NCBI GenBank assembly: GCA_964389465.1
Contig: CAYMDK010000001.1
Location: 86,852 to 150,851 of the forward strand
Reading direction: 5' to 3'
DNA from: an uncultured archaeon
Lineage (GTDB): Archaea > Thermoplasmatota > Poseidoniia > MGIII > CG-Epi1
DNA: 64,000 bases
The notes beneath the pieces were generated by a model. That model was given only the letters and a program-made list of their open reading frames with translations. It was not told the DNA's origin and did no database searches. The translations under genes and the position numbers were made by a program. Shown here piece by piece: positions 1 to 58,380 of this stretch; within the stretch, counting starts at the first letter, position 1, and the number at the start of each line of letters is the position of its first letter.

Positions 1-849
1 CTGGTTGGCGACCCGCCCAACGTCATGATTGCCGCCTCGACCGGCTTCACCTTCAACAGCTTCATCGAGCACCTGACGCCGTTGACGGTGATAGCATGGA
101 TTGCGACGATGGGCTACATGCGCTACTACTACCGGGACTGGATTGAGACCAAACCCGAACACGTGGAGGAGCTACTGGCGGAGGACGAGTGGGCCGTCGT
201 GCGCGACCTGCGAATGATGAACCGCACGCTGGTGGCACTGTCACTCACGATTGTGACGTTCTCAGTGCACGAGATAATTCACCTGGAGCTGGAGATTTCA
301 GCCATCGCGCTCGGTGGTGCCGGTCTGGCGATTGCGCTTTCGCTGCCCGATCTGCCCGAAGTGGTCGAGCGGGTCGAATGGCCGGCACTGCTCTTCTTCG
401 CCGGGCTGTTCATCATGGTTGGCGGGCTGGAAGGGGTTGGCCACCTGACTGCGCTGGCGAGCTGGATTTTCGATACCTTCGCAGATGACCCACTGATGCT
501 GGCGGTCGCAGTCATCTGGGTCTCCGCCATCGCGTCGGCCATCGTTGACAACATCCCCTTCGCCGCCGCCATGATTCCTGTCATCCACAAGCTGGGGGAG
601 CTGAGTGAAGGCGACATCAACACTGCGCCGCTCTTCTGGGCGCTGGCAATGGGCTGCGGCTTCGGCGGCAACGCGACCCCCATCGGGTCGAGCGCAAACG
701 TAATGACCGTCTCCATCGCCGAGCGCGGTGGTCACGCCATCAGCACGGCCGAATGGATTCGGGTGGGACTGCCGGTGATGATGATTACCTGCGTCGTCGC
801 GAGCATCTTCATGATCCTTTTCTACGACTCGCTCTACGTCAATCCCTGA
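1..849 (+). CDS. ArsB/NhaD-superfamily ion transporter permease (C-terminal part; gene starts upstream of window)
   Basis: Frame 1 is open from nt 1 (LVGDPPNVMIAAS...). It encodes a multi-TM protein with the GDPPN motif typical of ArsB/NhaD/CitMHS permeases. The track ORF 25..849 is the same frame. Confidence 0.7.
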   Translation: MVGDPPNVMIAASTGFTFNSFIEHLTPLTVIAWIATMGYMRYYYRDWIETKPEHVEELLAEDEWAVVRDLRMMNRTLVALSLTIVTFSVHEIIHLELEISAIALGGAGLAIALSLPDLPEVVERVEWPALLFFAGLFIMVGGLEGVGHLTALASWIFDTFADDPLMLAVAVIWVSAIASAIVDNIPFAAAMIPVIHKLGELSEGDINTAPLFWALAMGCGFGGNATPIGSSANVMTVSIAERGGHAISTAEWIRVGLPVMMITCVVASIFMILFYDSLYVNP

Positions 850-1706
850 GAGAGGACTGGACGGCAGGTCGCGCAGTCCTCCGTAGCGCTCACGGCAGCT
901 CCGCACTCCGGGCAACGCGCACGCTCGCGGAAGCGTTCCAGCCATGCCGCGCGCAGCTCGGGCTCGTCGGCCGCCATAGCGTGCCGCAATTCCTCCTCGC
1001 CGCCTTCCAGCGCCAGCAAGTGCTCCAGCCCCGGCATCGCCGCGACGCTGCTGGGCTGCGGCCGCAGCAGCGGCGCCATAAATACCCCGGCGACAAAGCC
1101 GGCGGCGTGCGCGGTATGCCCCACACCGTCACTGATGCCGGCCGCTACGTAGGCGGTCTCGCCGCCCATGAAAACCAGCGCCGCCAGCAGCACCGGCACC
1201 CGCGGCAGGAACAGCGGCCCCAGCAGCATCGGGATTTCGTCGCGCGGATAGAGCAGCGCGAAGGCGCCCATCACTGCGAAGACCGCCCCGGAAGCGCCGA
1301 TGTGGATGCCACCGTCGCCCTGCCACAGCGCCAGCAGCCCGCTCACCAGCGAAGCGAGCAGTCCGCCCGCGAAGAAGACTATGAGCAGCCGCCGCGTGCC
1401 GATGCGCTCCTCGAACGGCGCGCCGAGCAGCAGCAGCACCAGCATGTTCATCAGCAGGTGCAGCGGCCCTGCGTGCAGGAACATCGCGGTCACGAGCGTC
1501 GCCCATCCTGCGCCGGGCTGCGCCAGGTAGCTGGGGCGGAACCCCAGCTCGAGCCAGGTGGCCACCGGCGCGCCGGCGAGCCACCACGCGCCGAAGAGCG
1601 CGAAGTTGGCCAGCACCAGCGCCTGTGCCGCGTACATGCGGGCGCGCAGTCCGCCGACCAGCACCGCCACTGCCAGCAGTAGCAGCAGCAGGGAGAGCAC
1701 GCTCAT
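834..1706 (-). CDS. Rhomboid-family intramembrane serine protease with C-terminal Cys-rich (zinc-ribbon-like) tail
   Basis: Multi-TM protein with the GASGAVFAVMG catalytic Ser motif and a downstream His in a TM helix (GHTAHAAGFVAG). The C-terminus carries CPECG...C..C. Confidence 0.8.
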   Translation of the reverse strand: MSVLSLLLLLLAVAVLVGGLRARMYAAQALVLANFALFGAWWLAGAPVATWLELGFRPSYLAQPGAGWATLVTAMFLHAGPLHLLMNMLVLLLLGAPFEERIGTRRLLIVFFAGGLLASLVSGLLALWQGDGGIHIGASGAVFAVMGAFALLYPRDEIPMLLGPLFLPRVPVLLAALVFMGGETAYVAAGISDGVGHTAHAAGFVAGVFMAPLLRPQPSSVAAMPGLEHLLALEGGEEELRHAMAADEPELRAAWLERFRERARCPECGAAVSATEDCATCRPVLSQGLT

Positions 1707-1799
1707 TACCGGTGGCGAGCGCGGCGCCGGTTAAGGCTCACGCTAGGGTGGGGGGTTGGGGCCTCCGGGAGGCCCCCCGTAGCGCTTGGAGCGCCTGTT

Positions 1800-4700
1800 T
1801 TATGCGTCTTCCCGGCGGCGGAGGGCTACACCCAGGCCAGCCAGGAGGGATGCCATGCTGAGGCCGAAGAGGGTCAGCGCGAACGACGGAGTCGTATCGG
1901 AAGCTGCCACAATCGAGACGGTGCCACTGATGACGTTGTCGTCCCGCTGATTCAGGAACTCGTCATGGTGGGTGCGGTCGTTTATGATGTCCTCGGTCTC
2001 GAGCGTCGGGTTAATCTGGGCGTAGACGGTCACGTCCCAGTACTCGCCGCCGTTACCTCTGTCTGCGCCCTTCTCAGGAATGAAGGGGTCGACCCAGGTG
2101 ATTGAAGCGGTGCTGTAGGTCAGGACCTTGTTGTCCACCTGCTTCTGCGCGGTCAGCACGGCCGTGGGCGCCATACGGTCAATCGAGGTATCGCCGATGC
2201 GGGTTACCCGCTTCATGCCATCCGGGAAGGAGACCATCTTGCCGCCCTTGGGGTCGTAGACGTAGAAGACGACCAGCACGTCCTGTGCATAGTTGCCGTC
2301 GTTCTCGGCCGTAACCCGGACAGTGACGCCATTGTCATCGCCCTCGAGGACCGCAAGGCGGTCAACCGAGATTCCGGTCAGCGAGAACTGTGGCGGCCGG
2401 ATGAAGAGCGACGCTGAGAGTGGCTCGTCCATGTCCGCGCTGTTCGCGGTGTCCTTGCCGTTCAGCTTGATGTCGAACTCCCGGTTACCTGCAGGTTCGC
2501 CAGTATCCCAGTCGAAGTCGGGGGCCCAGATAGAGAGGGTGATGGTCACCTGCTGGTCAGCATCCAGCGGGATGCTGGTGGTTCCGTCTATCGAGGAAGT
2601 GGTCACCGGTGCTCCAGAGCTGGAGTCGGTCACCGCCCGGTAGATGGACCAGTCAGAGGTGTCGTATTCACTGCCTCCCGCCACGAGCGCTGGAGAGATT
2701 TCCAGCACGTTGGCAAGGGTTCCGATGTTGCGTGCGGTGTAGACTACATCCACTCCCAGTGAGGGGTAGATTTCGTACACACGCGTGTCGTGGTCGACCT
2801 TGTCCCAGAAGATACCGTGCTCGAGCGTACGGACCACCTTGACGCCGCCAATGGAGGCGCTACCCTGTGGACCCTTCGCCTGGAAGACGAAGGAATACTG
2901 GTTGTCAGGTGCAGGGTCGTAGTCCAGCCCGTTCAGGCCAAGCTTGCTGGTATCAAGGTGGATGTAGTATGGATTCCACTCGCCGTCCGAGTCATCTGTC
3001 AGCGAGTTGCCGACGTCACTGTGGTCGCGGCCATCGACTATCTTGAAGCCGTTGGGCGACCAGAGCACGACGGTATTACTGCTGTCAAAGGAGTGACCCT
3101 TCTGCTGCGCGTAGACCGTGATTTCGTTGCCGGAGCTCATGTCATAATTGGCCCAGAACATGAGGTAGCTGTCGTCAGTCCAGAGCGGGACGTAGTTGGT
3201 CCGCGCCTGCTCGGTCGCGACTGCCGCCGCGACGACTACGATTGTGCCAGCCATCATCGGGTGGACGCTACAGTAGTAGCTGAACGTCCCGACTTCGCTG
3301 AAGGTCAGCGAGCCACTCTCGCCTGCGGCGAGCGTGATTTCAGGCCAGTCTCCGCCAGTGGAGGTCACTGTGTGGGTAATGGTGTCGTCGTTGGTCCAGG
3401 TAACGGTAGTGCCGAGCACGGCCTCAACATAGCCGGGGCTGTAGCCAGTTGACTGCCCGACAATCGAGATGGTCATGTCTTCGGTTACCACATCGGTTTC
3501 GTCCCAGCTTACCGAGAGAGCGCCGTCGCCTACCGCGGCGGGTTCGCCCGCCGCGTCAGCCCAGTTCTCTCCACCGGTCAGTATCGGGGTGCCGAGATCC
3601 TGCTCGGTACCTACCAGCAGCATGTGGCTGGCAACGTTGTTCGACTTGAACAGGTCCTTCAGCGTGTCGCTGGTACCGGATTCGGCCAGCTTGACACCGA
3701 TGGTGTACATGCCGGGCGCAGAGAGGCCCGGGAAGCTGATGCTGAAAGTGCCGGTCTCTTCACCCATCGCCAGGTTGGAGATTGTGTAGGAGCTGTCACT
3801 CCAGACCGTGTTTCCGTCCGCGTCATTCACGTAGGCGTAGACATTCGCGCTGCTGATTGGGCCGCCAACGCCAAGGTCGCCCATACCCACGTTCTTGAAG
3901 CTCGTGGTGATGGTTGCTCCCTCGCCCAGCTCAAGCTTGTAGGGCATGCTGGAGGAGGTCTGCTCGATGTCGAAACCGAGCGCGTAGACGCCGACCTCGT
4001 CAATGTACCAGGTCGGGTCCCAGTCGATGAAGGTGCCGCCCATGTGGAATGCAATCGCGACGTCGTCCATGCCGGTGCCGGTAAAGGCATCCAGCCGCGC
4101 CTGCGACTCGACCCAGCCACCCGAGGCAGCGACGAACCCCTGCTGTCCTGCGAGCGGGTTGCCGTAGTAGGCGTAGTTGTAGACCGTTCCGCCATACAGG
4201 TCGCCCGAGGTCATCCCGATCGTGCCTGTACCCAGTACATCAACGTGGCCCCCATCATAGAAGGTGGAGCTGTAGCTGCTGATGTAGGCGTAGTAGGCAT
4301 ACTGGTGCTGGAACACCATCTTGGCCGAGGTCGCCTGCGACAGGTCTATCGAGGGCGAGATGAGGTTGGTGCTGTCACCGTTGTAGGCGGTGCCATACTC
4401 GTCGTCTCCACCCCACCACGACTTGCTGCCAGCAAAGACCTTGGTCGATTGGGTCTGCCACCGGGCCACCCCACTCGACAGATGGGCGGACCAGCCATCC
4501 TCATAAAGATGGGCCTTGCCGTCATATGTGCAGTCTTTGCATGATATCTCGGCCTCGCCGCCGGTGTAGGCCACGGTGAACATGGTCTCGCGCGATACCT
4601 CGCGCTTGTTGTCACCAGTGAACTCGTCCGCGGCAACGTTGCCGTCGTCATCGAGGTAGCCGTCAATCCAGGTCTCGACCCGTAGCTTGTACTGGCCGGG

Positions 4701-7700
4701 AATGGCGAAGTGGTAGTTCCAGATGATGTCCTTGGACTCGCCGCTGGCGAATGCCCCACCAGTGCCGGCGCCAGAGACGTCGACAGTGTCCTGATAGACA
4801 ATTTCAGCCAGGTCGGTACCGGTGATGTTCAGGTTGTCAACCACCCAGAACTCGCCGTCATACGGCCAGAGGTAGTGGTAGAACCCGAAGTGGAACCGGA
4901 AGCTGATATCACCCTCGCCGACGTAATCGGCGAGGTCGAATTCGCTCTCGACCCAGTCACCGTTCGGGTGCGCCGAGGCGCCACCGCTGGTGCCGACAAA
5001 GGCATCCTGTCCCCAGAGCGGATTGCCCCAGCCCTGATAGTTGTAGATAGTACCGGGGTAGCCACCGCTCGGGACAATCGTGGTCCAGCTCACACCACCG
5101 TCGTCCGAAATTTCGACTATGCCGCCGTTCGGGTTGTAGCTCAGTCCGCCGGTCCAGTGGAAGTTCCAGCGGTGCTGCATGGTCATCTTGGCGTCAGACG
5201 GAGCAGAGCTCAGGTCGTACGACTCGCTGACCAGCATACCTTCGCCGCCACCATAGTACATCTCGAACTCGTTGTTCGAGCCGGGGCCCCAGGCGTCGCT
5301 GCCGCCAAAGCCGGACTGTCCCGAGGGGAAGGTCCAGCCGGGCTGGCTGCCCCATGAGGAGCCTGCCGACGAATGGGATGCGGTCCAGGGGTGGTTGGAG
5401 CTGCTGTAGCTGTCGTGGTCCTCGGCAATCAGGTTGGTAACATCCTCGGTCCCGAGGGTGAGGCGCACCTTGGTCTTGCCAGAGGTCTGGTCGTTGACGC
5501 CCGCGTTGATTACGGTGGAGCCAATGTCAGGACTGCCATCTACCGGAATCGGGTCGACTACATCGATAGGCGAAACAGCGACGTTGTCGTTGAAGACTAT
5601 GCCGGTAATGGCAAGGTCATCCAGCCGGTAGAAGCCGTTGACGTAGCTGCCCCAGGAGGTCGAGGACCAGCCGACGTGCCAGCGGATGCGGATGTCGTCC
5701 TGTCCCACGTAGGGAGTCAGGTCGAAGGTCTTCTTCTCCCACGGCATCGGCGAGGGGCTGTAGCTGAAGCTGCCGCCCGCGCTGCCGTAGTAGGTGAAGC
5801 CACTGTAGCCACGTAGCGGGTTCTGGTAGTACGCGTAATTGTAAATCGCGTAGCTATAGCCACCAACCGGTGCAATCGGGTTCCAGCTGTTACCACTGTC
5901 TTCCGAGATTTCGACCACCGCACCATCGTACGTGTAGTAGAAGTAGTACGAGTGCATGAAGGTCATCTCGGCCTCAACCGGCATGAGAAGGTTGATGTCG
6001 CCCGTGGAGGCCCACGGGTCGCCGGGATAGGTCTGGTCGTACTTGCGCCCGGAGTCGAGCGAGCAAGGCGCGGAATTGACGTCATTGGAGGCTGCGCCCC
6101 AGATGGAGCCGCCCGAGGTGTCACGTCCGAAATTCCAGTCGTCGACATTGCAGTCATCGAAGTTGTCCGCGAAAACGACGTACTTGACTTCGCGGAAGAC
6201 GTTGAAGCGGTTGTTCGAGATGTCCTCGTCGCCATAGTCATTGATGATAGTCATCGAGACGCCGACCTTATCGCCCGACTTCAGGCCGTTCAACGAGGGC
6301 TGGAACGGACTGAACTCAACCGCGACAGTCTCCTTGTAGTCAATCGAGGCAATCGTCTTGGTCTCGTCGACAAAGGTCTGGTCGATATCAATCAGCTCGA
6401 CCTGCACGTCATCGAGACGGAAGAAACTGTTGTAGTACAGCCACGCGTAGCTGTACCAGTACTGGTTGTAACCTACTGTCCAGCGTACCTTGACGTCCGG
6501 GTAGCCTGTGAAATCACTAAGATCTACCTCCGTGGAATCCCACTTGCACGCCTGCCGGCAGGCAGCGTTGAAACCGCCGCCGGTGCCATAGTAGGTCCAC
6601 GCCTGCTTGTCCTTGATATAGTCAGGCGTGTTGTACCACGAATAAATCGAACCATAAGTGCCTGTGACATAGCCACCGCTGGTGAATTTATCTTCCTCGA
6701 TGTAGGTCCAGGTTGTACCGCCATCGGTCGATGCCTCCAGTATAGCGCCTTCGTACCGGTAGTAGAAGTAGTACGAGTGCTTGAACTTGAGGGTCATACC
6801 GACCGCAGTCGAGGTGTCAATCGAGGGGGTCGTAAGGTGGCTCAGCATCGCATCGAGCGGGCCAAACACCTTATCGAGACTGCCGTCCGAAAGGTCGTAG
6901 TAGCCAACCTTGTCGTAAGCGTTGTAGATGTAGTACTCGCGGTACAGATACGCACTGCTGATGTACACGTGGGTATCGGTCATGGCAACCGAGCCAATGT
7001 AGGTGTTCCAGCCACCGCCGTACTGCGTCAGCACGGTGGACCAGGAACAGCCCGTAGTGGATATCTTTTTCAGTCCGCCATAGAAGCTGGAGTAGTAGTA
7101 CCCTGACGTGTAGACAGAGCCCTCATAGACGTCAACGCTGCTCGGATAGTACAGGTACCCACCACCACTGTACTGACAGTGTGTGTAGGAGTTGGCGCCG
7201 TAGCCACCACTAGAGTCGCGAGTATACTTCCGCAACGCTGACTGGGAGTAATGGCGATAAACCATCCAGATGTCACCGGTGTCGTCATCCGCATCCAGGT
7301 CTTCCCAGTAGTAGTAACGTGATTTACCGTTACCATAGGTGAAGGAGCCATCGGTCGAGCCATCATCCGCATCCAGAATAACTACCTTGGTATTCGCGGT
7401 CGTGTAGAATACCTGCAGTGCGAATACCTGACCATCGTAGTAGGTAAGTGCCATCCCGTACTTGATTGCCGTCGATGAACTCGTCCATAGGAGGGTTCCA
7501 CTCGAACTGAACTTCTTGACCCACGTAGTGGTACAGAACAGGTAACCTGTGCCTGAACAGCGGCCTAACACATAGACATTACCACTGGGGTCAGTGGTCA
7601 CGTCCACCGGGTTGGTAAGGCCGGACTTGAAGACCGACCCCTGGTTGTCGCTGTCAAACTTCCATACTTGCCCATTCAGCCTGTCGGCAACATAGAGGTC

Positions 7701-8852
7701 AGAGCCATCGTGGTGAAGGCGGGCATTATCATTGAACATGCCGCCAATTGCACCCTCCTTGCGGCCGGACGACATGGAACGATCGGATGTGTCACCGTCG
7801 TTGAAGTGGTCGTCACCGTAGTTGTAGTTGCTAGTATGTGCACCCTGACTGTCATTAATATCTCCAGTCCAGAGGTTTGCACCCTGAGACGCACTGGAAG
7901 TGAAGTCACCGGCGCCAGAGTCGAAGTCCTCATCAAGGACAGTGTTGACCTTGGTCGAGAATACCTTGGCGTTGACGTCAACGCTGGTCTGGGTGTTGAC
8001 TCCCTTGTTGACCACGTTGGTCGAAATCGCGTTCTGGTCCGCCAGCGAAAGCGGGTCCGGGACGCTCGAACTCTCGAGCCGCAGCTCGTTGTCCGGAGGC
8101 GGTGGCGGGTAAAACAGGATAGCGAGGTTGTTGTAAGACGAACCACCGGTGCTGTAGGCGTAGCTCAGGCCGGGGCCGGAACCCTTCTGCTGGATACCGA
8201 TGGAAATGGTAGTGTAGTAACCGCCCCAGCTGCCGTCCTGATACTGGTAAACGATGTCACCATTCTCGTGCACGATAGCCTGGAAGGTCGAGGTATCAGA
8301 TGACCAGCAGGTGTAGTAGTTGCTCATCTTGTACCAGGTGATGGTGAGCTGCCGGTCGGGCGCGGTGCCCTGCGTCTCGTACTTGATGTACGCATCATTC
8401 TGGCAGTAGCGCCAGTCGTGCCAGTAGGGCGATAGCATCGTCCCGCTGATTGAACTGTACGGCATCTGGTAGGGAGTCCATGCATACGACACGGAGGGCT
8501 GGTCAAATGAGAACCAGCCGTTGTCACCACCAATGTAAAATTCATCGTAATCCACACCGTAGTAGGTCACCGTAAATCCGAGGTCGAAACTACTGGTGAC
8601 GTAGTCGCCGGGATTGGTAATGGACGTCCCGGTACTGGAAATATCATTCCAGCTATACGACACCTTGCCGTCTGTTTCCAGACTGTCGGTGAAGTTGTAA
8701 CCGAAGGAATCTGGTCCTCCGGTCTTCGCCGTGGCGTAGGGTGCCAGCATCACGAACGTGCTGGTGACCATGAACACGGCAACTGCAAAAGCAACGAGCC
8801 TTGCAGTCCAGGCGAGAGAGCTCTCCGTACGGGTTTCTTGCATATTACACAC
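1800..8852 (-). CDS. Giant (2350 aa) secreted/cell-surface protein: N-terminal signal/TM, NHL-like beta-propeller, four repeated ~180-aa beta-sandwich modules, cupredoxin (plastocyanin-like) domain, C-terminal TM anchor
   Basis: Single uninterrupted ORF. N-terminal hydrophobic segment. Module repeats of the form MT..H.YYFYY.Y.GA..E.S.DGG..W..I...YNY....NPL.GQ. NHL-like YVADRLNGQVWKFD. Type-1 copper signature H..(~35)..YYCSVHPMMAG. C-terminal ...TPSFALTLFGLSMASLLAGLGVALRRREDA. Start is GTG at 8852 or ATG at 8843. Confidence 0.75.
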   Translation of the reverse strand: MCNMQETRTESSLAWTARLVAFAVAVFMVTSTFVMLAPYATAKTGGPDSFGYNFTDSLETDGKVSYSWNDISSTGTSITNPGDYVTSSFDLGFTVTYYGVDYDEFYIGGDNGWFSFDQPSVSYAWTPYQMPYSSISGTMLSPYWHDWRYCQNDAYIKYETQGTAPDRQLTITWYKMSNYYTCWSSDTSTFQAIVHENGDIVYQYQDGSWGGYYTTISIGIQQKGSGPGLSYAYSTGGSSYNNLAILFYPPPPPDNELRLESSSVPDPLSLADQNAISTNVVNKGVNTQTSVDVNAKVFSTKVNTVLDEDFDSGAGDFTSSASQGANLWTGDINDSQGAHTSNYNYGDDHFNDGDTSDRSMSSGRKEGAIGGMFNDNARLHHDGSDLYVADRLNGQVWKFDSDNQGSVFKSGLTNPVDVTTDPSGNVYVLGRCSGTGYLFCTTTWVKKFSSSGTLLWTSSSTAIKYGMALTYYDGQVFALQVFYTTANTKVVILDADDGSTDGSFTYGNGKSRYYYWEDLDADDDTGDIWMVYRHYSQSALRKYTRDSSGGYGANSYTHCQYSGGGYLYYPSSVDVYEGSVYTSGYYYSSFYGGLKKISTTGCSWSTVLTQYGGGWNTYIGSVAMTDTHVYISSAYLYREYYIYNAYDKVGYYDLSDGSLDKVFGPLDAMLSHLTTPSIDTSTAVGMTLKFKHSYYFYYRYEGAILEASTDGGTTWTYIEEDKFTSGGYVTGTYGSIYSWYNTPDYIKDKQAWTYYGTGGGFNAACRQACKWDSTEVDLSDFTGYPDVKVRWTVGYNQYWYSYAWLYYNSFFRLDDVQVELIDIDQTFVDETKTIASIDYKETVAVEFSPFQPSLNGLKSGDKVGVSMTIINDYGDEDISNNRFNVFREVKYVVFADNFDDCNVDDWNFGRDTSGGSIWGAASNDVNSAPCSLDSGRKYDQTYPGDPWASTGDINLLMPVEAEMTFMHSYYFYYTYDGAVVEISEDSGNSWNPIAPVGGYSYAIYNYAYYQNPLRGYSGFTYYGSAGGSFSYSPSPMPWEKKTFDLTPYVGQDDIRIRWHVGWSSTSWGSYVNGFYRLDDLAITGIVFNDNVAVSPIDVVDPIPVDGSPDIGSTVINAGVNDQTSGKTKVRLTLGTEDVTNLIAEDHDSYSSSNHPWTASHSSAGSSWGSQPGWTFPSGQSGFGGSDAWGPGSNNEFEMYYGGGEGMLVSESYDLSSAPSDAKMTMQHRWNFHWTGGLSYNPNGGIVEISDDGGVSWTTIVPSGGYPGTIYNYQGWGNPLWGQDAFVGTSGGASAHPNGDWVESEFDLADYVGEGDISFRFHFGFYHYLWPYDGEFWVVDNLNITGTDLAEIVYQDTVDVSGAGTGGAFASGESKDIIWNYHFAIPGQYKLRVETWIDGYLDDDGNVAADEFTGDNKREVSRETMFTVAYTGGEAEISCKDCTYDGKAHLYEDGWSAHLSSGVARWQTQSTKVFAGSKSWWGGDDEYGTAYNGDSTNLISPSIDLSQATSAKMVFQHQYAYYAYISSYSSTFYDGGHVDVLGTGTIGMTSGDLYGGTVYNYAYYGNPLAGQQGFVAASGGWVESQARLDAFTGTGMDDVAIAFHMGGTFIDWDPTWYIDEVGVYALGFDIEQTSSSMPYKLELGEGATITTSFKNVGMGDLGVGGPISSANVYAYVNDADGNTVWSDSSYTISNLAMGEETGTFSISFPGLSAPGMYTIGVKLAESGTSDTLKDLFKSNNVASHMLLVGTEQDLGTPILTGGENWADAAGEPAAVGDGALSVSWDETDVVTEDMTISIVGQSTGYSPGYVEAVLGTTVTWTNDDTITHTVTSTGGDWPEITLAAGESGSLTFSEVGTFSYYCSVHPMMAGTIVVVAAAVATEQARTNYVPLWTDDSYLMFWANYDMSSGNEITVYAQQKGHSFDSSNTVVLWSPNGFKIVDGRDHSDVGNSLTDDSDGEWNPYYIHLDTSKLGLNGLDYDPAPDNQYSFVFQAKGPQGSASIGGVKVVRTLEHGIFWDKVDHDTRVYEIYPSLGVDVVYTARNIGTLANVLEISPALVAGGSEYDTSDWSIYRAVTDSSSGAPVTTSSIDGTTSIPLDADQQVTITLSIWAPDFDWDTGEPAGNREFDIKLNGKDTANSADMDEPLSASLFIRPPQFSLTGISVDRLAVLEGDDNGVTVRVTAENDGNYAQDVLVVFYVYDPKGGKMVSFPDGMKRVTRIGDTSIDRMAPTAVLTAQKQVDNKVLTYSTASITWVDPFIPEKGADRGNGGEYWDVTVYAQINPTLETEDIINDRTHHDEFLNQRDDNVISGTVSIVAASDTTPSFALTLFGLSMASLLAGLGVALRRREDA

Positions 8853-8985
8853 CTTGGTTGAGTCCTTGTCTCAGCGGGCAGGATACCCACTGAAGGGTTA
8901 CTGTCATGCTACACCGTTGATATAAAGCGTTCGCCCGGACCGGAAACAGGCTAAGCGATATAGGCGGGGCAGGGCTGCACCGACG

Positions 8986-9905: not shown

Positions 9906-9970
9906 TGGTGCGCGGGGCAGTATTCGAAACTGCGAACCCCTGAGGGAGGAGGTCTTGAGCCTCCCGCGAT
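9906..9970 (-). other. tRNA-like element / truncated tRNA (T-arm + acceptor 3' strand + encoded CCA, no D-arm)
   Basis: Reverse complement ...GGAGG-CTCAAGA-CCTCC-TCCCTCAGGGGTTC-GCAGT-TTCGAAT-ACTGC-CCCGCGC-A-CCA. It has a canonical T-loop and acceptor/CCA, but the 5' half lacks a D-arm and is only about 63 nt. Confidence 0.25.
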
Positions 9971-10042
9971 TGGCCAGACTATGCGACCCGCGCCCTGCGG
10001 CCGAAGGTCGGGGGTATTTTAGCCGCGCGTCGCTGCCGGGGC

Positions 10043-12603: not shown

Positions 12604-12681
12604 GGGCCCGTAGGGTAGCTTGGTCAATCCTTCGGCGTTCGGGACGCCGGTACTCCAGTTCAAATCTGGGCGGGCCCACCA
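12604..12681 (+). tRNA. tRNA-Pro (anticodon CGG), CCA encoded
   Basis: Hand-folded cloverleaf: acceptor GGGCCCG/CGGGCCC, anticodon stem CGGCG/CGCCG with loop TTCGGGA, T-arm CCAGT-TCAAATC-TGGG, 3' ACCA. Confidence 0.85.
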
Positions 12682-21037: not shown

Positions 21038-21113
21038 TGGCGGGCCCGCGGGGATTCGAACCCCGGGTCTCCGGCTTAGAAGGCCGGCGCCTTTCCAGCT
21101 AGGCTACGGGCCC
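21038..21113 (-). tRNA. tRNA-Arg (anticodon TCT), CCA encoded
   Basis: Reverse complement folds as a cloverleaf: acceptor GGGCCCG/CGGGCCC, anticodon stem CCGGC/GCCGG with loop CTTCTAA, T-arm GGGGTTCGAATCCCC. Confidence 0.85.
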
Positions 21114-24312: not shown

Positions 24313-24399
24313 GCGAGGATCGCATAGCCTGGCCATTGCGTCGGATTGCTAATCCGATGGGCTTGTCCCACGGGGGTTCAAATCCCCCTCCTCGCGCCA
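24313..24399 (+). tRNA. tRNA-Ser (anticodon GCT), class II with long variable arm, CCA encoded
   Basis: Acceptor GCGAGGA/TCCTCGC, anticodon stem TCGGA/TCCGA with loop TTGCTAA, long variable arm TGGGCTTGTCCCAC, T-arm GGGGGTTCAAATCCCCC. Followed by a T6 run. Confidence 0.85.
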
Positions 24400-25169: not shown

Positions 25170-25246
25170 TGGTGGACCGGGCGAGATTTGAACTCGCGCC
25201 CTCCTCCATGCCAAGGAGGCGATCTTCCAGACTGATCTACCGGCCC
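25170..25246 (-). tRNA. tRNA-Ala (anticodon GGC) with G3:U70 identity pair, CCA encoded
   Basis: Reverse complement: acceptor GGGCCGG/CCGGTCC (G3-U70 wobble), D-arm GATCAGTCTGGAAGATC, anticodon stem CCTCC/GGAGG with loop TTGGCAT, T-arm GCGAGTTCAAATCTCGC. Confidence 0.85.
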
Positions 25247-27038: not shown

Positions 27039-28733
27039 GTGTTCGAAATCCGGCAGCGCGACGGGCTGGCGCGCATCGGCCGCCTGACGACTCCGCACGG
27101 CGAGCTCACGACGCCGACGCTGCTGCCGGTGGTCAACCCGCGCAAGCTGACGCTGGCGCCAGCCGAGATTCGCGACTGCGGGGCGACCGGGCTGATTACC
27201 AACTCGTACATAATTTCGCGCCACGACGAGCTGCGCGAGCCGGCGCTGGCTGACGGCGTCCACGCGCTGCTGGGGTGGGACGGTCCGCTGATGACCGACA
27301 GCGGCACCTTCCAGTCGCACGTCTACGGCGACATCGAGGTCGAGCCGCAGGTCATTGTCGAGTTCCAGCGCGATATCGGCAGCGACATTGGCACCGTGCT
27401 CGACGTCTTCACCGAGCCCGAAAGCGACATCGAACGCGCCGGGGCGGAGCTGGCGGAAACGCAGGCGCGCATCGCGGCGGCCGTCCCGCTCAAGGGTGAG
27501 ATGCTGCTCGCCGCTACGGTGCAGGGCGGCAGCCACCCCGAATTGCGCGAGCGCGCTGCGGCGCAAGTCTCCACCGTCGAGGCGGACGTGCATCCCATCG
27601 GCGGTGTCGTGCCGCTGATGGAGCAATACCGCTACGCCGAGCTGGCGACGCTGGTGCTCGCCGCGAAGCGCGCGCTGGTGCCGTCACGGCCGGTGCACCT
27701 GTTCGGCTGCGGACATCCGTCGCTCTTCGCACTCGCGGCGCTGCTCGGCTGCGACCTGTTTGACAGCGCCAGCTACGCCAAGTTCGCCGCTGATGGGCGC
27801 ATGATGTTCAGTTGGGGTACACGACGACTGGTAGAGATGCAGGAACTGCCATGCGCCTGCGCAGTCTGCTCCGCAACTACCGCCAATGAGCTGCAGGCGC
27901 TCCCCGACACCGAGCGCGAGCGTCAGCTCGCACGCCACAACCTGCTCGTCAGTTTTGCTGAGCTGCGGCGGGTGAGACAGGCGATTCGCGACGGCCTGCT
28001 GTGGGAGCTGGTCGTATCACGCGCTGCCGACCGCCCCGAAGTGGCCGACGCGCTCGTGGCGCTCGAGCCGCACGGCGACTGGCTCGAGCAGTGGGAGCCT
28101 GCCTTCCGGCCGCGGCAGCCGACCGCGAAGCGGGAGTCGCTCCTGCGGCTCGCGCGCAGCAGGCTCACCCGCACGGCCAGCGGCGGCCCTGCCTTCGAGC
28201 ATCCGCTCTTCGGCGGCGTCCCCGAAACGCTGGTGGACACGGCGCCGCTGCGGCCGCTCGGCAACGTGCGCCAGCGCGACTGGACCGCCGCACGGGTGCA
28301 TGCCATCGCCAGCTACCAGTTCGGTAGCGCTGCAGCCGACGCACTAATGGATGGTGATGTAGAGCTGGTTACCAGCCGTAATACCGGACGATTACGCAAC
28401 GTACTGGTTGACGGTGAGCATCGTTTGTCGCTGAGTGCACGTCACGGGCTTTTCACACTCCGGGCAGCTGGTGCATGTGTAATCCACGCCACCTGCGCAG
28501 CACCGCAGCACCGGGTGGTGGTCCACGCGGACTCTGCTGAGTTCAACCGGCAGGGGCGAAACGCCTTCTGCAAGTTTGTCCTTGAATGTGACCCGGAACT
28601 GCACTGCCAGGACGAGTGCCTGATTGTTACTGAAAGTGATGAGCTGGTCGCAGTAGGGAAACTAAAAACGGCGCCTGTCGAGATTGCATTGGGTCAGCAG
28701 GGACTGGCGGTCAAGGTGCGCGAAGCCGTTTAA
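27039..28733 (+). CDS. tgtA: Archaeosine tRNA-guanine transglycosylase (ArcTGT) with C-terminal PUA domain
   Basis: TGT TIM-barrel motifs (LTTPHGELTTPTLLPVVNP, DSGTFQ), zinc site CACAVCS...H, and C-terminal C2/PUA-like domains. 564 aa is typical of ArcTGT. Confidence 0.85.
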   Translation: MFEIRQRDGLARIGRLTTPHGELTTPTLLPVVNPRKLTLAPAEIRDCGATGLITNSYIISRHDELREPALADGVHALLGWDGPLMTDSGTFQSHVYGDIEVEPQVIVEFQRDIGSDIGTVLDVFTEPESDIERAGAELAETQARIAAAVPLKGEMLLAATVQGGSHPELRERAAAQVSTVEADVHPIGGVVPLMEQYRYAELATLVLAAKRALVPSRPVHLFGCGHPSLFALAALLGCDLFDSASYAKFAADGRMMFSWGTRRLVEMQELPCACAVCSATTANELQALPDTERERQLARHNLLVSFAELRRVRQAIRDGLLWELVVSRAADRPEVADALVALEPHGDWLEQWEPAFRPRQPTAKRESLLRLARSRLTRTASGGPAFEHPLFGGVPETLVDTAPLRPLGNVRQRDWTAARVHAIASYQFGSAAADALMDGDVELVTSRNTGRLRNVLVDGEHRLSLSARHGLFTLRAAGACVIHATCAAPQHRVVVHADSAEFNRQGRNAFCKFVLECDPELHCQDECLIVTESDELVAVGKLKTAPVEIALGQQGLAVKVREAV

Positions 28734-28765
28734 AGCAGGAAAGATAAGTCAGAACAGGAGCTGAC

Positions 28766-30334
28766 ATGCAGAAAATTAACAGGCGCCAGACATTCGTTGT
28801 ATTCACTGTAGTTCTTGTTCTTTCGATGACCGTTTACAGTAACGGTCATTTCCGGGACCTTTTCTCATATTATGAGCATGCTGGAGATAAAGCGTATGAC
28901 CTGAATGATGACGGATGGACTGTGGATTTAGATGCCTCTTTCGAGATGGTTGATAAATTCGATTTGATGCTGGAAAATATAGATGAGTATGAATACCCGG
29001 CGAATAGTGTAATTGTTGTCAACCAGGGGACCATCGTTCGGGAGAGATACTACAATGATTTCAGTTACAGTACGCAATTCAACACTTATTCGGTCACCAA
29101 GAGTTTCACTTCAGTATTGGTGGGAATCGCGATAGACCAGGGAATCATTGGCAGCGTTGACGATCCCGTTGTTAGTTATTTTCCGAACACGACCTTTGAT
29201 GAGAATTCTCCTGAAAAACAGAGCGTTACGATTAAACACATTTTGACCATGACGTCTGGATTTGACTATGGTGTAGACCCTACGTTTGCACCTCCAGTAG
29301 ATGGGTCAATGGCTATGCACGTCCTCAATAGCCCTGTAAATCGTGAACCAGGTACATCATGGGTCTACGACTCGCAAGCACCGTCTATACTCACCAGAAT
29401 TATTGAGATTCAATCAAATATGTCATTGATAGATTTTGCCAATGAATCCCTATTCGGCCCCCTGGGGATTCAGGAAGTATCATGGGGTACGGATGACTCG
29501 GGGCTGGCATACGGCGGCTTTGGGTTGTATCTAACCTCCAGGGAGATGGCGAAGTTTGGCCAATTATTCCTACAGGAAGGGATGTGGAATGGCAAACAGA
29601 TTATATCGAAGGAATGGGTTCAGGAATCAACATTGGACCAGATGCCGGCCAATGTCCAATTTGTTTATTCAGTAAGACCTTCAGGAGGGTATGGCTATCT
29701 GTGGTGGACCTATGACGGGTTTTACACTGCATCAGGCTTGCACGGGCAACGGATAATAGTCAATCCCGGTAACGAATACGTTGTGGTCTTCACTTCGCTT
29801 GACGTGACGCAAGAGGGGGCCGATAACCTTCATAAGTCCTTGCTTGAGGAGGATTTTGTAGGTTGGGAAAAGCCGATGACGGATTTTTACAAGAGGTCTG
29901 CGCCTTACCTGATTTTGCTTCTTCTGTTTTTCGCAACAATCAATTTAGCTCTTCTAAAGTACGGAATCAACCAAAGGATATCCTCTAAGGGCAAAGACCA
30001 GGACATTGTCCTGACCTCTTTGGGATTGTCGGCCTACCCTGTCTTTGTGGGTTTTCTGGCAACCCTTTCAATCGTATTCGTAGCGCTAGACCTCTTTTTT
30101 GCCGGTTCGAGAGGAATCTTGTTCCCAAAGTTCCAATGGCTAACGTGGATAATGCTGATTATGCTCACGGGTTCAATAGTTGTCTTGGACGGTGCGTGGT
30201 TGAAATATAGACATAGTGCAGATCTTGCAGGATTGTCAAAAATTATTGTTCCCAAGTCAATTTTCTTTGTAATATTGACCGTGGTTCTGTTCTTCAGTGT
30301 ATATCTGAGGATGGTTGCTGATTTTTCGGCTTAG
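28766..30334 (+). CDS. Serine hydrolase, beta-lactamase class C / S12 peptidase (D-aminopeptidase-like) family, with C-terminal multi-TM membrane domain
   Basis: S-x-x-K active-site motif SVTKSF with flanking beta-lactamase fold. The C-terminal ~170 aa contains four hydrophobic helices. AT-rich codon usage. Confidence 0.7.
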   Translation: MQKINRRQTFVVFTVVLVLSMTVYSNGHFRDLFSYYEHAGDKAYDLNDDGWTVDLDASFEMVDKFDLMLENIDEYEYPANSVIVVNQGTIVRERYYNDFSYSTQFNTYSVTKSFTSVLVGIAIDQGIIGSVDDPVVSYFPNTTFDENSPEKQSVTIKHILTMTSGFDYGVDPTFAPPVDGSMAMHVLNSPVNREPGTSWVYDSQAPSILTRIIEIQSNMSLIDFANESLFGPLGIQEVSWGTDDSGLAYGGFGLYLTSREMAKFGQLFLQEGMWNGKQIISKEWVQESTLDQMPANVQFVYSVRPSGGYGYLWWTYDGFYTASGLHGQRIIVNPGNEYVVVFTSLDVTQEGADNLHKSLLEEDFVGWEKPMTDFYKRSAPYLILLLLFFATINLALLKYGINQRISSKGKDQDIVLTSLGLSAYPVFVGFLATLSIVFVALDLFFAGSRGILFPKFQWLTWIMLIMLTGSIVVLDGAWLKYRHSADLAGLSKIIVPKSIFFVILTVVLFFSVYLRMVADFSA

Positions 30335-30412
30335 TAAACCCCCTTTTCGTTCCAGACAATACTTACTATTGTTTTTGTAAAACTTAAAAACAACTGTGGC
30401 CTGCGTTGGATA

Positions 30413-31114: not shown

Positions 31115-31116
31115 AG

Positions 31117-31140
31117 TGGCGCCAGGAGAGTGTTCCGAAC
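31117..31140 (+). repeat. Direct repeat of the tRNA-Ser(CGA) 3' end (putative att-site remnant)
   Basis: tggcgccaggagag at 31117-31130 is identical to 31218-31231 (the tRNA 3' end including CCA). Extended similarity covers about 22/27 nt. A hairpin gaacctttt/aaaaggttc follows at 31141-31161. Confidence 0.6.
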
Positions 31141-31217
31141 GAACCTTTTGAGAAAAGGTTCATCAAAATCGTGAGTTCGGAATCACTATCGGAGCGCCAT
31201 GCGCCGTCCACGACGCA

Positions 31218-31303
31218 TGGCGCCAGGAGAGGGATTCGAACCCCCGTGGGGAGACCCCAGTGGTTTTCGAGACCACCGCCCTACCGGACTAGGCGATCCT
31301 GGC
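31218..31303 (-). tRNA. tRNA-Ser (anticodon CGA), class II with long variable arm, CCA encoded
   Basis: Reverse complement: acceptor GCCAGGA/TCCTGGC, 3-bp D stem, anticodon stem GTGGT/ACCAC with loop CTCGAAA, variable arm TGGGGTCTCCCCAC, T-arm GGGGGTTCGAATCCCTC. Confidence 0.8.
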
Positions 31304-31405
31304 GCGCAGGCGCCATTGTGGCGGGATGATAAGCATTAAGCCAGAGGCGGCGGCGGCAATTGACTGCCGCCGCCAACCGTTAATCCCGTCCACCGCTGGC
31401 TGCGC

Positions 31406-31612: not shown

Positions 31613-31638
31613 AGGCAAGGATTAAACGCTCGGAAGGG

Positions 31639-58175: not shown

Positions 58176-58232
58176 AACCGGTTTTATCGTCGGGGGCATT
58201 GATATTTATACCATTGTGGTGCGTGCCCCTGT

Positions 58233-58376: not shown

Positions 58377-58380
58377 GACT

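What the first reader, a model, noticed from the sequence alone, without database searches (positions are those of the whole stretch)
3230..3500. Type-1 copper (cupredoxin) domain embedded in a 2350-aa cell-surface adhesin-like protein
The segment TVTWTNDDTITHTVT...(35 aa)...FSYYCSVHPMMAGTIVV carries the complete His/Cys/His/Met ligand set and spacing of plastocyanin/halocyanin. It lies between repeated beta-sandwich modules of a protein with signal peptide, NHL-type propeller and C-terminal membrane anchor. A redox-competent blue-copper domain displayed on a giant surface protein is unusual. It could mediate extracellular electron transfer, or be a repurposed structural fold.
Basis: partly seen in the sequence, partly recalled or inferred. 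Interest (0 to 1): 0.55.

Follow-up and report, generated by a model that had tools for sequence, protein, structure and literature searches.

The report
Blue-copper domain in giant archaeal surface protein
A 2,350-residue cell-surface protein of uncultured marine archaea (Poseidoniia, mostly labelled Marine Group III) carries one small "blue copper" electron-transfer domain in its membrane-near stalk. The domain is real and strongly conserved, but its redox partner is unknown and similar fusions turn out to be common in sequence databases.

Summary
Residues 1790-1875 of the minus-strand ORF 1800-8852 (window 3228-3485) form a cupredoxin domain. It passes the Pfam PF00127 cutoff and models confidently (pLDDT 84-96). 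It is about 50% identical to free-standing cupredoxins and to the "dangling" type-1 copper domain of Nitrosopumilus Nmar_1354, which has been shown to hold copper.

The ligands His1827, Cys1861, His1864 and Met1867 have amicyanin spacing (C-x2-H-x2-M), not plastocyanin spacing. They are intact in the window protein and its 6 database orthologues, in all 20 genome loci and in all 38 metagenome loci recovered.

The host is a core, syntenic envelope protein. It has a signal peptide, a NIDO domain, an NHL propeller, four adhesin/CBM-like jelly-rolls, Ig-like spacers, the cupredoxin, a three-domain stalk and a C-terminal membrane anchor.

My best reading is a copper-loaded, tethered one-electron module. 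Copper binding is likely; a physiological electron-transfer role is only inferred.

Long-range extracellular electron transfer is unlikely, because there is a single redox centre and no haem motif. Three more distant lineages have lost ligands but keep the domain, so the scaffold does not need copper.

Databases already call the orthologues "plastocyanin". Proteins with 3-12 tandem cupredoxin domains fill most of the top 150 hits. This is a new variant of a known kind, of moderate interest.

The parts
1800..8843 (-). Giant envelope protein gene. It encodes 2347 aa from the ATG at 8843. The ORF listing starts it at the GTG at 8852, giving 2350 aa, and all residue numbers in this report use the GTG numbering.
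   Evidence: ORF. Six full-length orthologues at 88-43% identity. Twenty GTDB species loci and 38 metagenome loci. Mature protein pI 4.2, 252 kDa.
8727..8843 (-). Signal peptide or N-terminal hydrophobic segment (aa 4-42, ...LAPYATA|KT).
   Evidence: Hydrophobic window above 1.6 on the Kyte-Doolittle scale at aa 11-35. Conserved in the orthologues.
8103..8720 (-). NIDO-like N-terminal domain (aa 45-250).
   Evidence: PF06119 at 27.9 bits against a cutoff of 25 when scanned alone. About 33% identity to the NIDO regions of bacterial giant S8 peptidases P0007-P0011.
6924..7745 (-). NHL-type beta-propeller (aa 370-643). It is inserted between the N-terminal strands (aa 306-368) and the body of jelly-roll repeat 1.
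   Evidence: PF01436 NHL at 20.5 bits against a cutoff of 20. SBBP and ScyD/ScyE-like hits below their cutoffs. The insertion is inferred from the repeat mapping.
6390..6923 (-). Jelly-roll repeat R1 (aa 644-821).
   Evidence: HMM built from R2 hits it at E 9e-27.
5595..6176 (-). Jelly-roll repeat R2 (aa 893-1086), with an adhesin/CBM/MAM-like fold.
   Evidence: AF2 pLDDT 85.5, pTM 0.86. Foldseek matches gingipain cleaved-adhesin domains K1 and K3 (E 6.5e-6, TMt 0.66-0.68), CBM61/22/4/27, reelin and MAM. The profile hits reelin 3a7q at E 1.5e-7.
4812..5414 (-). Jelly-roll repeat R3 (aa 1147-1347).
   Evidence: R2 HMM E 6.8e-24.
3990..4538 (-). Jelly-roll repeat R4 (aa 1439-1621).
   Evidence: R2 HMM E 2.7e-12.
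3486..3974 (-). Ig/CARDB-like domain (aa 1627-1748) plus a conserved linker (aa 1749-1789) that precedes the cupredoxin.
   Evidence: Beta strands in the AF2 model at low confidence. Mean pairwise identity 0.63-0.66, among the highest in the protein. The linker is retained in the short form P0052/P0012.
3228..3485 (-). Type-1 copper cupredoxin domain (aa 1790-1875). Ligand codons: His1827 at 3372-3374, Cys1861 at 3270-3272, His1864 at 3261-3263, Met1867 at 3252-3254.
1923..3215 (-). Three beta-sandwich stalk domains D1-D3 (aa 1880-2310) between the cupredoxin and the anchor.
   Evidence: Strand-rich AF2 model for D1. Conserved at 0.58-0.68 identity. The cupredoxin plus this stalk recurs as one module in P0051-P0064.
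1803..1922 (-). C-terminal anchor: invariant TPSFA motif, a TM helix and RRREDA.
   Evidence: No PGF-CTERM or other archaeosortase signal model matched. The only marginal hit is to the generic LPXTG anchor model (16.3 bits against 15.9).
834..1706 (-). Rhomboid intramembrane protease gene, 93 bp downstream and on the same strand. Its link to the giant protein is only suggested by conserved adjacency.
   Evidence: PF01694 at 101 bits. The order SNO - giant - rhomboid - CitMHS is kept in L001-L004 at 43-45% protein identity.

Best explanation
Window 3228-3485 (minus strand) encodes a genuine type-1 ("blue") copper cupredoxin domain of the small amicyanin-like / Cupredoxin_1 class. Its ligands are His1827, Cys1861, His1864 and Met1867.

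The domain is a fixed, conserved module in the membrane-near third of a roughly 250 kDa secreted, C-terminally anchored envelope protein of Poseidoniia archaea. The outer two thirds of that protein consist of binding-type modules: a NIDO domain, an NHL propeller and four adhesin/CBM-like jelly-rolls.

The most likely working is as follows. The domain binds one copper outside the cytoplasmic membrane and acts as a tethered one-electron carrier. It would exchange electrons by collision with a separate partner in the space between the membrane and the cell surface. This resembles membrane-tethered archaeal cupredoxins (halocyanin, sulfocyanin) and the dangling T1 domain of Nmar_1354. The tether stops the carrier diffusing away from a cell that has no outer membrane.

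Shown: the fold, the ligand set, its conservation, the domain order and the extracellular topology signals. Inferred: copper occupancy (about 0.85 likely) and a physiological electron-transfer role (about 0.45). The partner is unknown.
For: 1. Family membership. PF00127 scores above its cutoff. Thirty-nine free-standing cupredoxins match at 38-54% identity. The best PDB match is the C-terminal cupredoxin of 9cck (E 3.4e-15), with all four ligands aligned and the same C-x2-H-x2-M loop. That domain was shown by EPR and a crystal structure to be metalated, with His2Cys coordination plus an axial Met (PMC11761707).

2. Fold. AF2 gives pLDDT 84-96 across the domain. Foldseek TMt is 0.7-0.78 to the purple cupredoxin 5fc9, plastocyanin and amicyanin.

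3. Purifying selection on the site. The ligands are intact in the 7 aligned sequences, in 20 of 20 GTDB species loci and in 38 of 38 metagenome loci. Among 20 non-redundant orthologues, 20 of 86 domain columns are invariant, against 8.3% protein-wide. All four ligands are among those invariant columns.

4. The domain is obligatory in the module. In an exhaustive search with aa 1750-2350, every full-module relative also contains the cupredoxin.

5. Topology. A signal peptide, a C-terminal TM segment and an RRRE tail place the domain outside the membrane.

6. The gene is core and syntenic. It sits among housekeeping genes in orthologues only 43-45% identical.
Against: - No partner was found. No oxidase, bc-type complex, copper chaperone or other redox gene lies in the 64 kb window or next to the orthologues.
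- Three more distant lineages keep the domain and the whole architecture but break the site. P0053 has Cys to Asp and His to Tyr. P0058 and the 2,358-aa P0064 have the second His replaced by Tyr in a longer loop. The scaffold's main job therefore does not require T1 copper.
- The domain is no more conserved overall than its neighbours: 0.62 mean identity against 0.49-0.68.
- About 450 residues of stalk separate it from the membrane, which is awkward for docking onto a membrane complex.
- The conserved linkers on both sides suggest a rigidly built-in domain rather than a swinging one.
- Ligand geometry could not be measured, because the tools return no coordinates.
Confidence: 0.5

Rival explanations
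1. The domain is mainly a structural spacer or a protein-binding module of the stalk. On this view copper, if bound, only stabilises the fold, and no electron transfer matters physiologically. The parallels are ephrins and the plant early-nodulin-like phytocyanins.
For: - Ligand-deficient lineages keep the domain in the same place in an otherwise identical architecture.
- The flanking linkers are highly conserved and the domain's overall conservation matches that of neighbouring beta-sandwich domains.
- No redox partner lies nearby.
- The rest of the protein consists of binding modules.
- There is precedent: phytocyanin families mix copper-binding members with members that lost the ligands, all at the cell surface (PMC8955391).
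Against: - All four ligands are strictly invariant in 65 sequences spanning roughly 45-90% identity.
- The domain has three times the protein-wide share of invariant columns.
- A purely structural role would not hold Cys, both His and Met fixed this tightly.
- The nearest relatives are working electron carriers.
Confidence: 0.25
2. The domain supplies or removes electrons for an unrecognised catalytic site elsewhere in the same protein, for example in the NHL propeller or the NIDO domain. This would mirror the fused cupredoxins of NirK and of the two-domain multicopper oxidases.
For: - The best structural and sequence matches include cupredoxin domains fused to enzymes, 9cck and 6hbe.
- NHL propellers are catalytic in some enzymes (my own knowledge: peptidyl-alpha-hydroxyglycine lyase).
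- The propeller weakly resembles ScyD/ScyE proteins.
Against: - No second metal or cofactor motif was found. There are only 14 Cys in total and no CxxCH.
- No enzyme family matched any segment.
- More than 1,100 residues and at least seven domains separate the propeller from the cupredoxin.
- The short form P0052/P0012 has the cupredoxin module without any of the N-terminal domains.
Confidence: 0.08
3. The protein is a conduit for long-range extracellular electron transfer to particles or partner cells.
For: - The location is surface-exposed.
- Surface or membrane cupredoxins have been proposed for electron uptake in other archaea, such as rusticyanin, sulfocyanin and Methanosarcina barkeri cupredoxin-domain proteins (PMC6315138).
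Against: - There is one redox centre per 2,350 residues, no chain of centres within tunnelling distance and no haem sites.
- The organism's context is that of an aerobic heterotroph, with fatty-acid oxidation genes and peptide transporters in the window and no EET genes.
- The cupredoxin sits in the membrane-near stalk, not at the outer tip.
Confidence: 0.05
4. The domain captures, buffers or senses copper at the cell surface.
For: - It is a high-affinity copper site displayed outside the cell on what is probably an abundant core envelope protein.
- From my own knowledge, these archaea rely on copper proteins and oceanic copper is scarce and complexed.
Against: - From established knowledge, type-1 sites are buried, exchange metal slowly and are tuned for electron transfer rather than metal hand-off.
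- No copper transporter or chaperone gene is adjacent.
- The stoichiometry is one copper per 250 kDa.
Confidence: 0.07

Closest known systems
The "dangling" C-terminal T1 cupredoxin domain of Nitrosopumilus maritimus Nmar_1354 (MCO4; PDB 9cck)
   Same: It is the best solved match (E 3.4e-15, about 50% identity over 77 residues). It shares the HTVT motif and the C-x2-H-x2-M loop. It comes from a marine archaeon and is a small cupredoxin fused to a larger extracytoplasmic protein. It has been shown to be metalated as a standard T1 site.
   Different: In Nmar_1354 the partner is obvious, because the domain is fused to a multicopper oxidase through a 15-residue linker at the C-terminus. Here the domain is internal, has conserved structured flanks, and the host protein has no recognisable catalytic or second copper site.
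Amicyanin (TIGR02657) and plastocyanin (TIGR02656)
   Same: The cupredoxin fold, the His/Cys/His/Met ligands, and ligand-loop spacing identical to amicyanin His53/Cys92/His95/Met98.
   Different: The scores are far below the equivalog cutoffs: 34.6 against 110.2 for amicyanin and 20.9 against 87.85 for plastocyanin. No methylamine dehydrogenase or photosynthetic context is present. The domain is not a free 10-kDa protein.
Membrane-tethered archaeal cupredoxins (halocyanin, sulfocyanin, rusticyanin-like)
   Same: Each has a single T1 copper domain held at the outer face of an archaeal membrane. They are thought to replace soluble cytochrome c as the carrier (PMC5155288; PMC6315138).
   Different: Those are small proteins tethered by a lipid or a single helix close to the membrane. 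This one is embedded in a 2,350-aa adhesin-like protein, and three stalk domains separate it from its anchor.
Plant phytocyanins (stellacyanin, uclacyanin, early nodulin-like proteins) and ephrins
   Same: They are cell-surface-anchored cupredoxin domains with no known redox partner. These families mix members that bind copper with members that lost the ligands (PMC8955391; ephrins PMC6485061, listed). The family here shows the same pattern.
   Different: They are eukaryotic, small, GPI-anchored or single-pass proteins. The relationship is by fold only.
Prokaryotic multi-cupredoxin surface proteins (for example P0054 with about 8 domains, P0149, and the 3,670-aa P0154 with 12 cupredoxin plus PKD domains)
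   Same: They are large secreted proteins built from cupredoxin domains of the same Pfam families mixed with Ig/PKD-type modules. They are likewise auto-annotated as plastocyanin or halocyanin-like.
   Different: Those carry tandem arrays that could relay electrons from one domain to the next. This protein has exactly one cupredoxin among about 18 non-redox domains.
Gingipain/HagA "cleaved adhesin" domains, CBMs, and MAM and reelin subrepeats (for the four repeats, not for the cupredoxin)
   Same: The beta-jelly-roll fold (TMt 0.6-0.68, E about 1e-5) and the Asp-box-like SxDxGxxW motif.
   Different: Sequence identity is 8-17%. No ligand is known. No Pfam family reaches its cutoff.

Membership tests
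Type-1 blue copper protein / cupredoxin (Pfam PF00127, clan CL0026) | The sequence matches the family model above the curated cutoff. | tested here: met
   PF00127 scores 23.2 bits against 21.2. The margin is small in the window protein, but relatives P0052 and P0064 score 32.5-33 bits. PF13473 scores 25.5 against 27, just below.
Type-1 blue copper protein / cupredoxin (Pfam PF00127, clan CL0026) | Greek-key beta-sandwich cupredoxin fold. | tested here: met
   AF2 pLDDT 84-96 over aa 1790-1875. Foldseek TMt 0.70-0.78 and rmsd 2.6-2.7 A to 5fc9 and 1bxu.
Type-1 blue copper protein / cupredoxin (Pfam PF00127, clan CL0026) | Ligand set of one upstream His plus Cys-Xn-His-Xm-Met in the C-terminal loop. 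| tested here: met
   H1827, C1861, H1864 and M1867 align to the ligands of 9cck and amicyanin. They are invariant in 65 sequences.
Type-1 blue copper protein / cupredoxin (Pfam PF00127, clan CL0026) | The four ligand side chains converge on one site in three dimensions. | not testable with these tools
   The prediction tool returns confidence values and secondary structure but no coordinates. Convergence is inferred only from homology to 9cck.
Type-1 blue copper protein / cupredoxin (Pfam PF00127, clan CL0026) | Copper is bound, with the 600 nm charge-transfer band and small parallel hyperfine EPR splitting. | not testable with these tools
   This needs expressed protein.
Amicyanin (NCBIfam TIGR02657 equivalog) | Score above the equivalog cutoff, and partnership with methylamine dehydrogenase. 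| tested here: not met
   34.6 bits against a cutoff of 110.2. No MADH genes lie in the window. It is amicyanin-like in loop length only.
Plastocyanin (NCBIfam TIGR02656 equivalog) | Score above the cutoff, and a C-x2-H-x4-M loop. | tested here: not met
   20.9 bits against 87.85. The loop is C-x2-H-x2-M. The database name "plastocyanin" for the orthologues is a family-level label only.
Extracellular electron-transfer conduit | A chain of several redox centres close enough for electron hopping across the envelope. | tested here: not met
   An HMM search of all six frames of the window finds one cupredoxin only. The protein has 14 Cys and no CxxCH.
Archaeosortase-sorted surface protein (PGF-CTERM, PEF-CTERM or PEFG-CTERM) | A C-terminal tripartite signal matching one of the curated models. 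| tested here: not met
   The C-terminal 56 aa hit no archaeosortase signal model. The only marginal hit is to the generic LPXTG anchor (16.3 against 15.9). The TPSFA + TM + RRRE shape is sorting-signal-like but unclassified.
Adhesin / carbohydrate-binding jelly-roll modules (cleaved-adhesin, CBM, MAM, reelin subrepeat B) | Jelly-roll fold similarity, and a family model above cutoff. | tested here: inconclusive
   The fold criterion is met and the profile hits reelin at E 1.5e-7. However, PF21471 scores 14.8-15.2 bits against a cutoff of 27. The repeats are adhesin-like by fold, and family membership is not established.
Archaeal S-layer (glyco)protein | Abundant lattice-forming envelope protein, usually rich in N-glycosylation sites. 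| tested here: inconclusive
   In favour: it is core, syntenic, acidic, secreted and C-terminally anchored. Against: only 3 N-x-S/T sequons where about 20 are expected. Lattice formation and abundance cannot be tested here.

The most novel reading that the evidence does not exclude
The giant protein may be the principal envelope (S-layer-like) protein of Marine Group III / Poseidoniia cells. If so, these abundant and uncultured planktonic archaea would coat themselves with a regular array of type-1 copper centres, forming a redox-active cell surface. Such a surface could pass electrons between the respiratory chain and external substrates, particles or partner cells. It could also hold much of the cell's copper quota. 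The ligand-deficient lineages would be those that abandoned this function.
Probability: 0.1. Interest if true: 0.75.

Novelty: new variant of a known kind. Interest (0 to 1): 0.4.

Why it matters
Poseidoniia (MGII and MGIII) are among the most abundant archaea in the ocean, and none has been cultured. Their envelope and their respiratory electron carriers are known only from automatic annotation.

This work shows that a gene called "plastocyanin" in these genomes is in fact a 250-kDa adhesin-like surface protein with a single embedded blue-copper domain. A published metatranscriptome study listed a different 7.9-kb MGII gene as "plastocyanin (petE)" and counted it as an electron-transport gene (PMC9723583). 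Metabolic reconstructions that treat such genes as soluble carriers are therefore probably misreading them.

If the domain is redox-active, it points to a lineage habit of tethering carriers to envelope proteins. If it is not, it is a prokaryotic parallel to the phytocyanin and ephrin story, in which a cupredoxin fold was recruited for surface functions.

Either way the domain is small and easy to express. A copper-binding and redox-potential test is straightforward.

Tried and rejected
1. Looked for a second cupredoxin or haem site that could make a wire. An HMM search of all six frames found only one domain, and there is no CxxCH.

2. Looked for functional neighbours. The window and the orthologous loci hold housekeeping genes only: PdxT/SNO, agmatinase-type arginase, aIF5A, TBP, thiolase, acyl-CoA dehydrogenase, MetRS and others. 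None is an oxidase or a copper-handling gene.

3. Tried to identify the four repeats and the other segments by Pfam, NCBIfam and a database profile search. Only NIDO and a marginal NHL repeat passed. The profile search returned only fragments of the same family. Fold search was needed to classify the repeats.

4. Tried to find genomic context for the short form, which is a signal peptide followed directly by the cupredoxin module (P0052, P0012). The metagenome scan returned only giants or truncated giants.

It was repeated with A3.

7. A ligand-geometry check on the model was not possible because coordinates are not exposed.

8. Taxon names for the ligand-deficient lineages could not be obtained. 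P0062 is labelled Anaerolineae, probably because a 3.7-kb contig was mis-binned.

9. Considered a PGF-CTERM/archaeosortase signal and rejected it.

10. The literature searches found no paper describing this architecture. The MGIII genome paper I recall is not in the library.
Full report

Yes. The longest ORF at the left end of the window runs on the minus strand from 8852 (GTG) to 1800 and encodes 2,350 aa. The orthologues begin at MQET, so the ATG at 8843 is the likely start.

- Pfam places a plastocyanin/azurin-family domain at aa 1804-1873. PF00127 scores 23.2 bits against a cutoff of 21.2. PF13473 covers aa 1790-1873 at 25.5 bits against a cutoff of 27.
- NCBIfam's best hits are amicyanin and plastocyanin, both far below their equivalog cutoffs.
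- A phmmer search of PDB gives E 3.4e-15 to the C-terminal cupredoxin of 9cck, 1e-11 to the purple cupredoxin 5fc9 and about 1e-9 to amicyanins. His, Cys, His and Met are aligned residue for residue.
- The domain alone retrieves 39 free-standing cupredoxins of 108-159 aa at 38-54% identity.
- An AlphaFold2 model of aa 1630-2010 has pLDDT 84-96 across the domain, although the flanks are poor. Foldseek matches cupredoxins with target-normalised TM 0.70-0.78.

The ligand loop is C-S-V-H-P-M-M, that is C-x2-H-x2-M. This is amicyanin spacing, not plastocyanin spacing.

**2. What is the host protein?**

The topology signals are an N-terminal hydrophobic signal ending ...ATA|KT and a C-terminal TM helix followed by RRREDA. 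The mature protein is acidic (pI 4.2) and weighs 252 kDa.

From N to C the domains are:
- A NIDO-like domain (27.9 bits against a cutoff of 25). It also matches the NIDO regions of bacterial giant S8 peptidases.
- A PPPPP linker and a small Ig/CARDB-like domain.
- An NHL-type propeller (20.5 bits against 20, marginal). It appears to be inserted into the first of four internal repeats.
- The four repeats R1-R4 (aa 644-821, 893-1086, 1147-1347, 1439-1621), found with an HMM built from R2 (E 1e-12 to 1e-27) and separated by Ig-like spacers.
- A further Ig-like domain and a conserved linker.
- The cupredoxin.
- Three beta-sandwich domains.
- The anchor.

An alignment of the repeats hits reelin subrepeats in PDB at E 1.5e-7. 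The R2 model (pLDDT 85.5, pTM 0.86) matches the cleaved-adhesin domains of Lys-gingipain, several carbohydrate-binding modules, reelin, InhA2 and MAM domains. "Adhesin-like" is therefore a fair description by fold, although no adhesin family model reaches its cutoff.

There is only one cupredoxin in the whole window and no haem-binding motif in the protein.

**3. Who has it, and is the copper site conserved?**

- Six full-length orthologues at 88-43% identity were found. NCBI names one [quoted passage not shown] and JGI names one "plastocyanin".
- Twenty species-representative genomes carry the gene, which encodes 2,375-2,619 aa in the loci where the ORF is complete. They are mostly labelled Marine Group III, Poseidoniia or Thalassarchaeaceae, and the closest (90%) is a Poseidoniia MAG.
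- A metagenome scan added 38 more loci.
- Every one of these sequences has H...C-x2-H-x2-M intact. That includes a locus with masked bases and one that my first regular expression missed.
- Among 20 non-redundant orthologues, 20 of 86 cupredoxin columns are invariant, against 8.3% across the whole protein. All four ligands are among them.
- Mean pairwise identity of the domain (0.62) is similar to its neighbours. The C-terminal module as a whole is the best-conserved part.
- The gene order PdxT(SNO) - giant - rhomboid - CitMHS, with TBP, aIF5A and an arginase-family gene upstream, is kept at 43-45% protein identity. This is a core chromosomal gene, not an island adhesin.

**4. The wider family**

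An exhaustive HMM search with aa 1750-2350 found 35,171 proteins at E<=1e-3. Almost all match through the cupredoxin alone. Most of the top 150 are multi-cupredoxin proteins with 3-12 tandem domains. One is a 3,670-aa protein with 12 cupredoxin and several PKD domains.

Relatives that match the whole module always include the cupredoxin. They reveal two further things.

First, a short form exists. In P0052 (825 aa) and the fragment P0012, a signal peptide is followed directly by the conserved linker, the cupredoxin and the stalk. Cupredoxin on a stalk is therefore a cassette that can exist without the adhesin-like head.

Second, more distant lineages have broken sites in an otherwise unchanged architecture:
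- P0053 has Cys to Asp and the second His to Tyr.
- P0058 (a five-member cluster) and the 2,358-aa giant P0064 have C-S-Y-Y-R-x-S-G-M, which lacks the second His.
- P0062 has a plastocyanin-length C-x2-H-x4-M loop.

It is met in distant relatives.

**5. How does it most likely work?**

Shown:
- The fold and the ligand set.
- The strict conservation of that set.
- The extracellular topology signals.
- The position about 450 residues (three domains) before the membrane anchor.
- The obligatory presence of the domain in the module.

Inferred, first step: the site binds copper as a T1 centre. This rests on about 50% identity and an identical ligand pattern to the Nmar_1354 dangling domain. That domain was shown by EPR stoichiometry and a 1.8 A structure to be metalated with His2Cys plus a weak axial Met (PMC11761707). 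I put this at about 0.85.

Inferred, second step: it serves as a tethered one-electron carrier in the space outside the membrane, meeting a separate partner by collision. This would parallel the membrane-tethered cupredoxins that stand in for cytochrome c in other archaea. I put this at about 0.45. No partner is visible, the site is dispensable in related lineages, and the conserved flanks suggest a rigid rather than a mobile domain.

Rivals:
- The main rival (0.25) is a structural or binding role, like ephrins and early-nodulin-like phytocyanins.
- Long-range extracellular electron transfer is unlikely (0.05), because one centre in 250 kDa cannot form a relay.
- An intramolecular donor to a hidden catalytic site (0.08) lacks support.
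- Copper capture or sensing (0.07) also lacks support.

**6. Comparison with what is known, and novelty**

The domain is a new member of the small-cupredoxin family, closest to the Nitrosopumilus dangler and to amicyanin-length loops. It is neither an amicyanin nor a plastocyanin orthologue.

The databases already flag the domain, so its presence is not new. I did not find any description of the following combination in the literature searches:
- a single T1 cupredoxin fixed in the stalk of a core, syntenic, 250-kDa adhesin-like envelope protein;
- spread across a whole archaeal lineage;
- with natural ligand-loss variants.

A metatranscriptome paper lists a 7.9-kb MGII gene as "plastocyanin (petE)" and a 2.3-kb fasciclin-type gene as "halocyanin", and counts them as electron-transport genes (PMC9723583). 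This shows that the architecture is being overlooked.

Because multi-cupredoxin giant proteins are common, I rate this a new variant of a known kind with interest 0.4.

**7. Limits**

- No coordinates were available, so ligand geometry is unverified.
- The flanking domains modelled poorly with only seven sequences.
- Taxon labels come from record titles.
- The genomes could not be scanned for other cupredoxins or oxidases.
- The ligand-deficient lineages have no taxonomic assignment.

Noticed in passing
window 1803-8843 (-), whole giant protein: N-glycosylation sequons are strongly depleted. There are only 3 N-x-S/T sites where about 20 are expected (minimum of 200 shuffles = 10). All 23 orthologues show the same, with 0-4 observed against 7-22 expected. 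The other 34 ORFs of the window together show no depletion (46 observed against 41.6 expected). This is odd for a giant secreted archaeal protein and argues against a classical S-layer glycoprotein.
   Followed up: partly
window 834-1706 (-): A rhomboid intramembrane protease gene lies 93 bp downstream on the same strand, and the adjacency is conserved at 43-45% identity. Its best NCBIfam hit is rhombosortase (45.7 bits against a cutoff of 84). Together with the invariant TPSFA + TM + RRRE C-terminus, this raises the possibility of a rhomboid-processed anchor. However, the whole region is syntenic, so adjacency alone proves little.
   Followed up: partly
P0053, P0058 (5-member cluster), P0064 (2358 aa), P0062; no window coordinates: More distant family members keep the cupredoxin domain but change its ligands. 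The changes are Cys to Asp plus His to Tyr; second His to Tyr in a longer loop; and a plastocyanin-length loop.
   Followed up: partly
P0052 (825 aa) and P0012 (157-aa fragment): A short form of the family starts with its own signal peptide, directly followed by the linker, the cupredoxin and the stalk. P0052 also carries an extra Cys-rich (pacifastin/VWF-like) C-terminal region. That region is also present in the 2,619-aa variant L019/L025.
   Followed up: partly
window ~1765-1790 (-): A G+C-rich perfect hairpin, GGGGCCTCC-(N)-GGAGGCCCC, lies immediately after the giant gene's stop codon. It is followed by a C-run rather than a T-run.
   Followed up: no
window ~8915-8930 (-): A TATA-box-like TTTATAT lies about 75 nt upstream of the ATG at 8843. 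It is a candidate archaeal promoter for the giant gene.
   Followed up: no
window 35665-38613 (-) and 54647-56143 (-): Two further secreted, C-terminally anchored surface proteins. One is a 982-aa FG-GAP repeat protein with a Kre9/KNH-like Ig domain, in a low-GC stretch (GC about 0.50). The other is a 498-aa CARDB protein. Both end in a TM helix, RR and an acidic tail but lack the PSFA motif.
   Followed up: partly
window 31639-33885 (+): A 748-aa pentapeptide-repeat protein with a Sm_multidrug_ex domain is enriched in N-x-S/T sequons (9 observed against 2.8 expected). This is the opposite of the giant protein.
   Followed up: no
window 28000-32000, 36000-38000, 58000-62000: Three stretches have markedly lower G+C (0.50-0.56 against about 0.65 elsewhere). 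They hold a beta-lactamase-family gene, a cysteine-dioxygenase-like gene and the FG-GAP surface protein, among others.
   Followed up: no
PMC9723583 supplementary tables (SIMO Bin 19-2 genes 515 and 1221): In a published MGII metatranscriptome, "Plastocyanin (petE)" is a 7.9-kb gene with a bacterial Ig-like domain. "Halocyanin (hcy)" is a 2.3-kb fasciclin-type gene. Both are discussed as electron-transport genes. Giant cupredoxin-bearing surface proteins therefore seem to be a wider Poseidoniia habit that automatic names hide.
   Followed up: partly
P0055 (361 aa): A family fragment in which the cupredoxin's last strand (PMMxGTIVVV...) is missing after C-G-I-H. A similar 'MRGTVVVVSGASAG' segment sits upstream of the domain. 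This may be a rearrangement, a circular-permutation-like variant or an assembly artefact.
   Followed up: no
window 9906-9993, 12604-12681, 21038-21113, 24313-24399, 25170-25246, 31218-31303, 34858-34935: ARAGORN calls seven tRNA genes. Rfam's tRNA model reaches its gathering score for only five of them. tRNA-Leu(CAA) and tRNA-Pro(CGG) are not confirmed.
   Followed up: no
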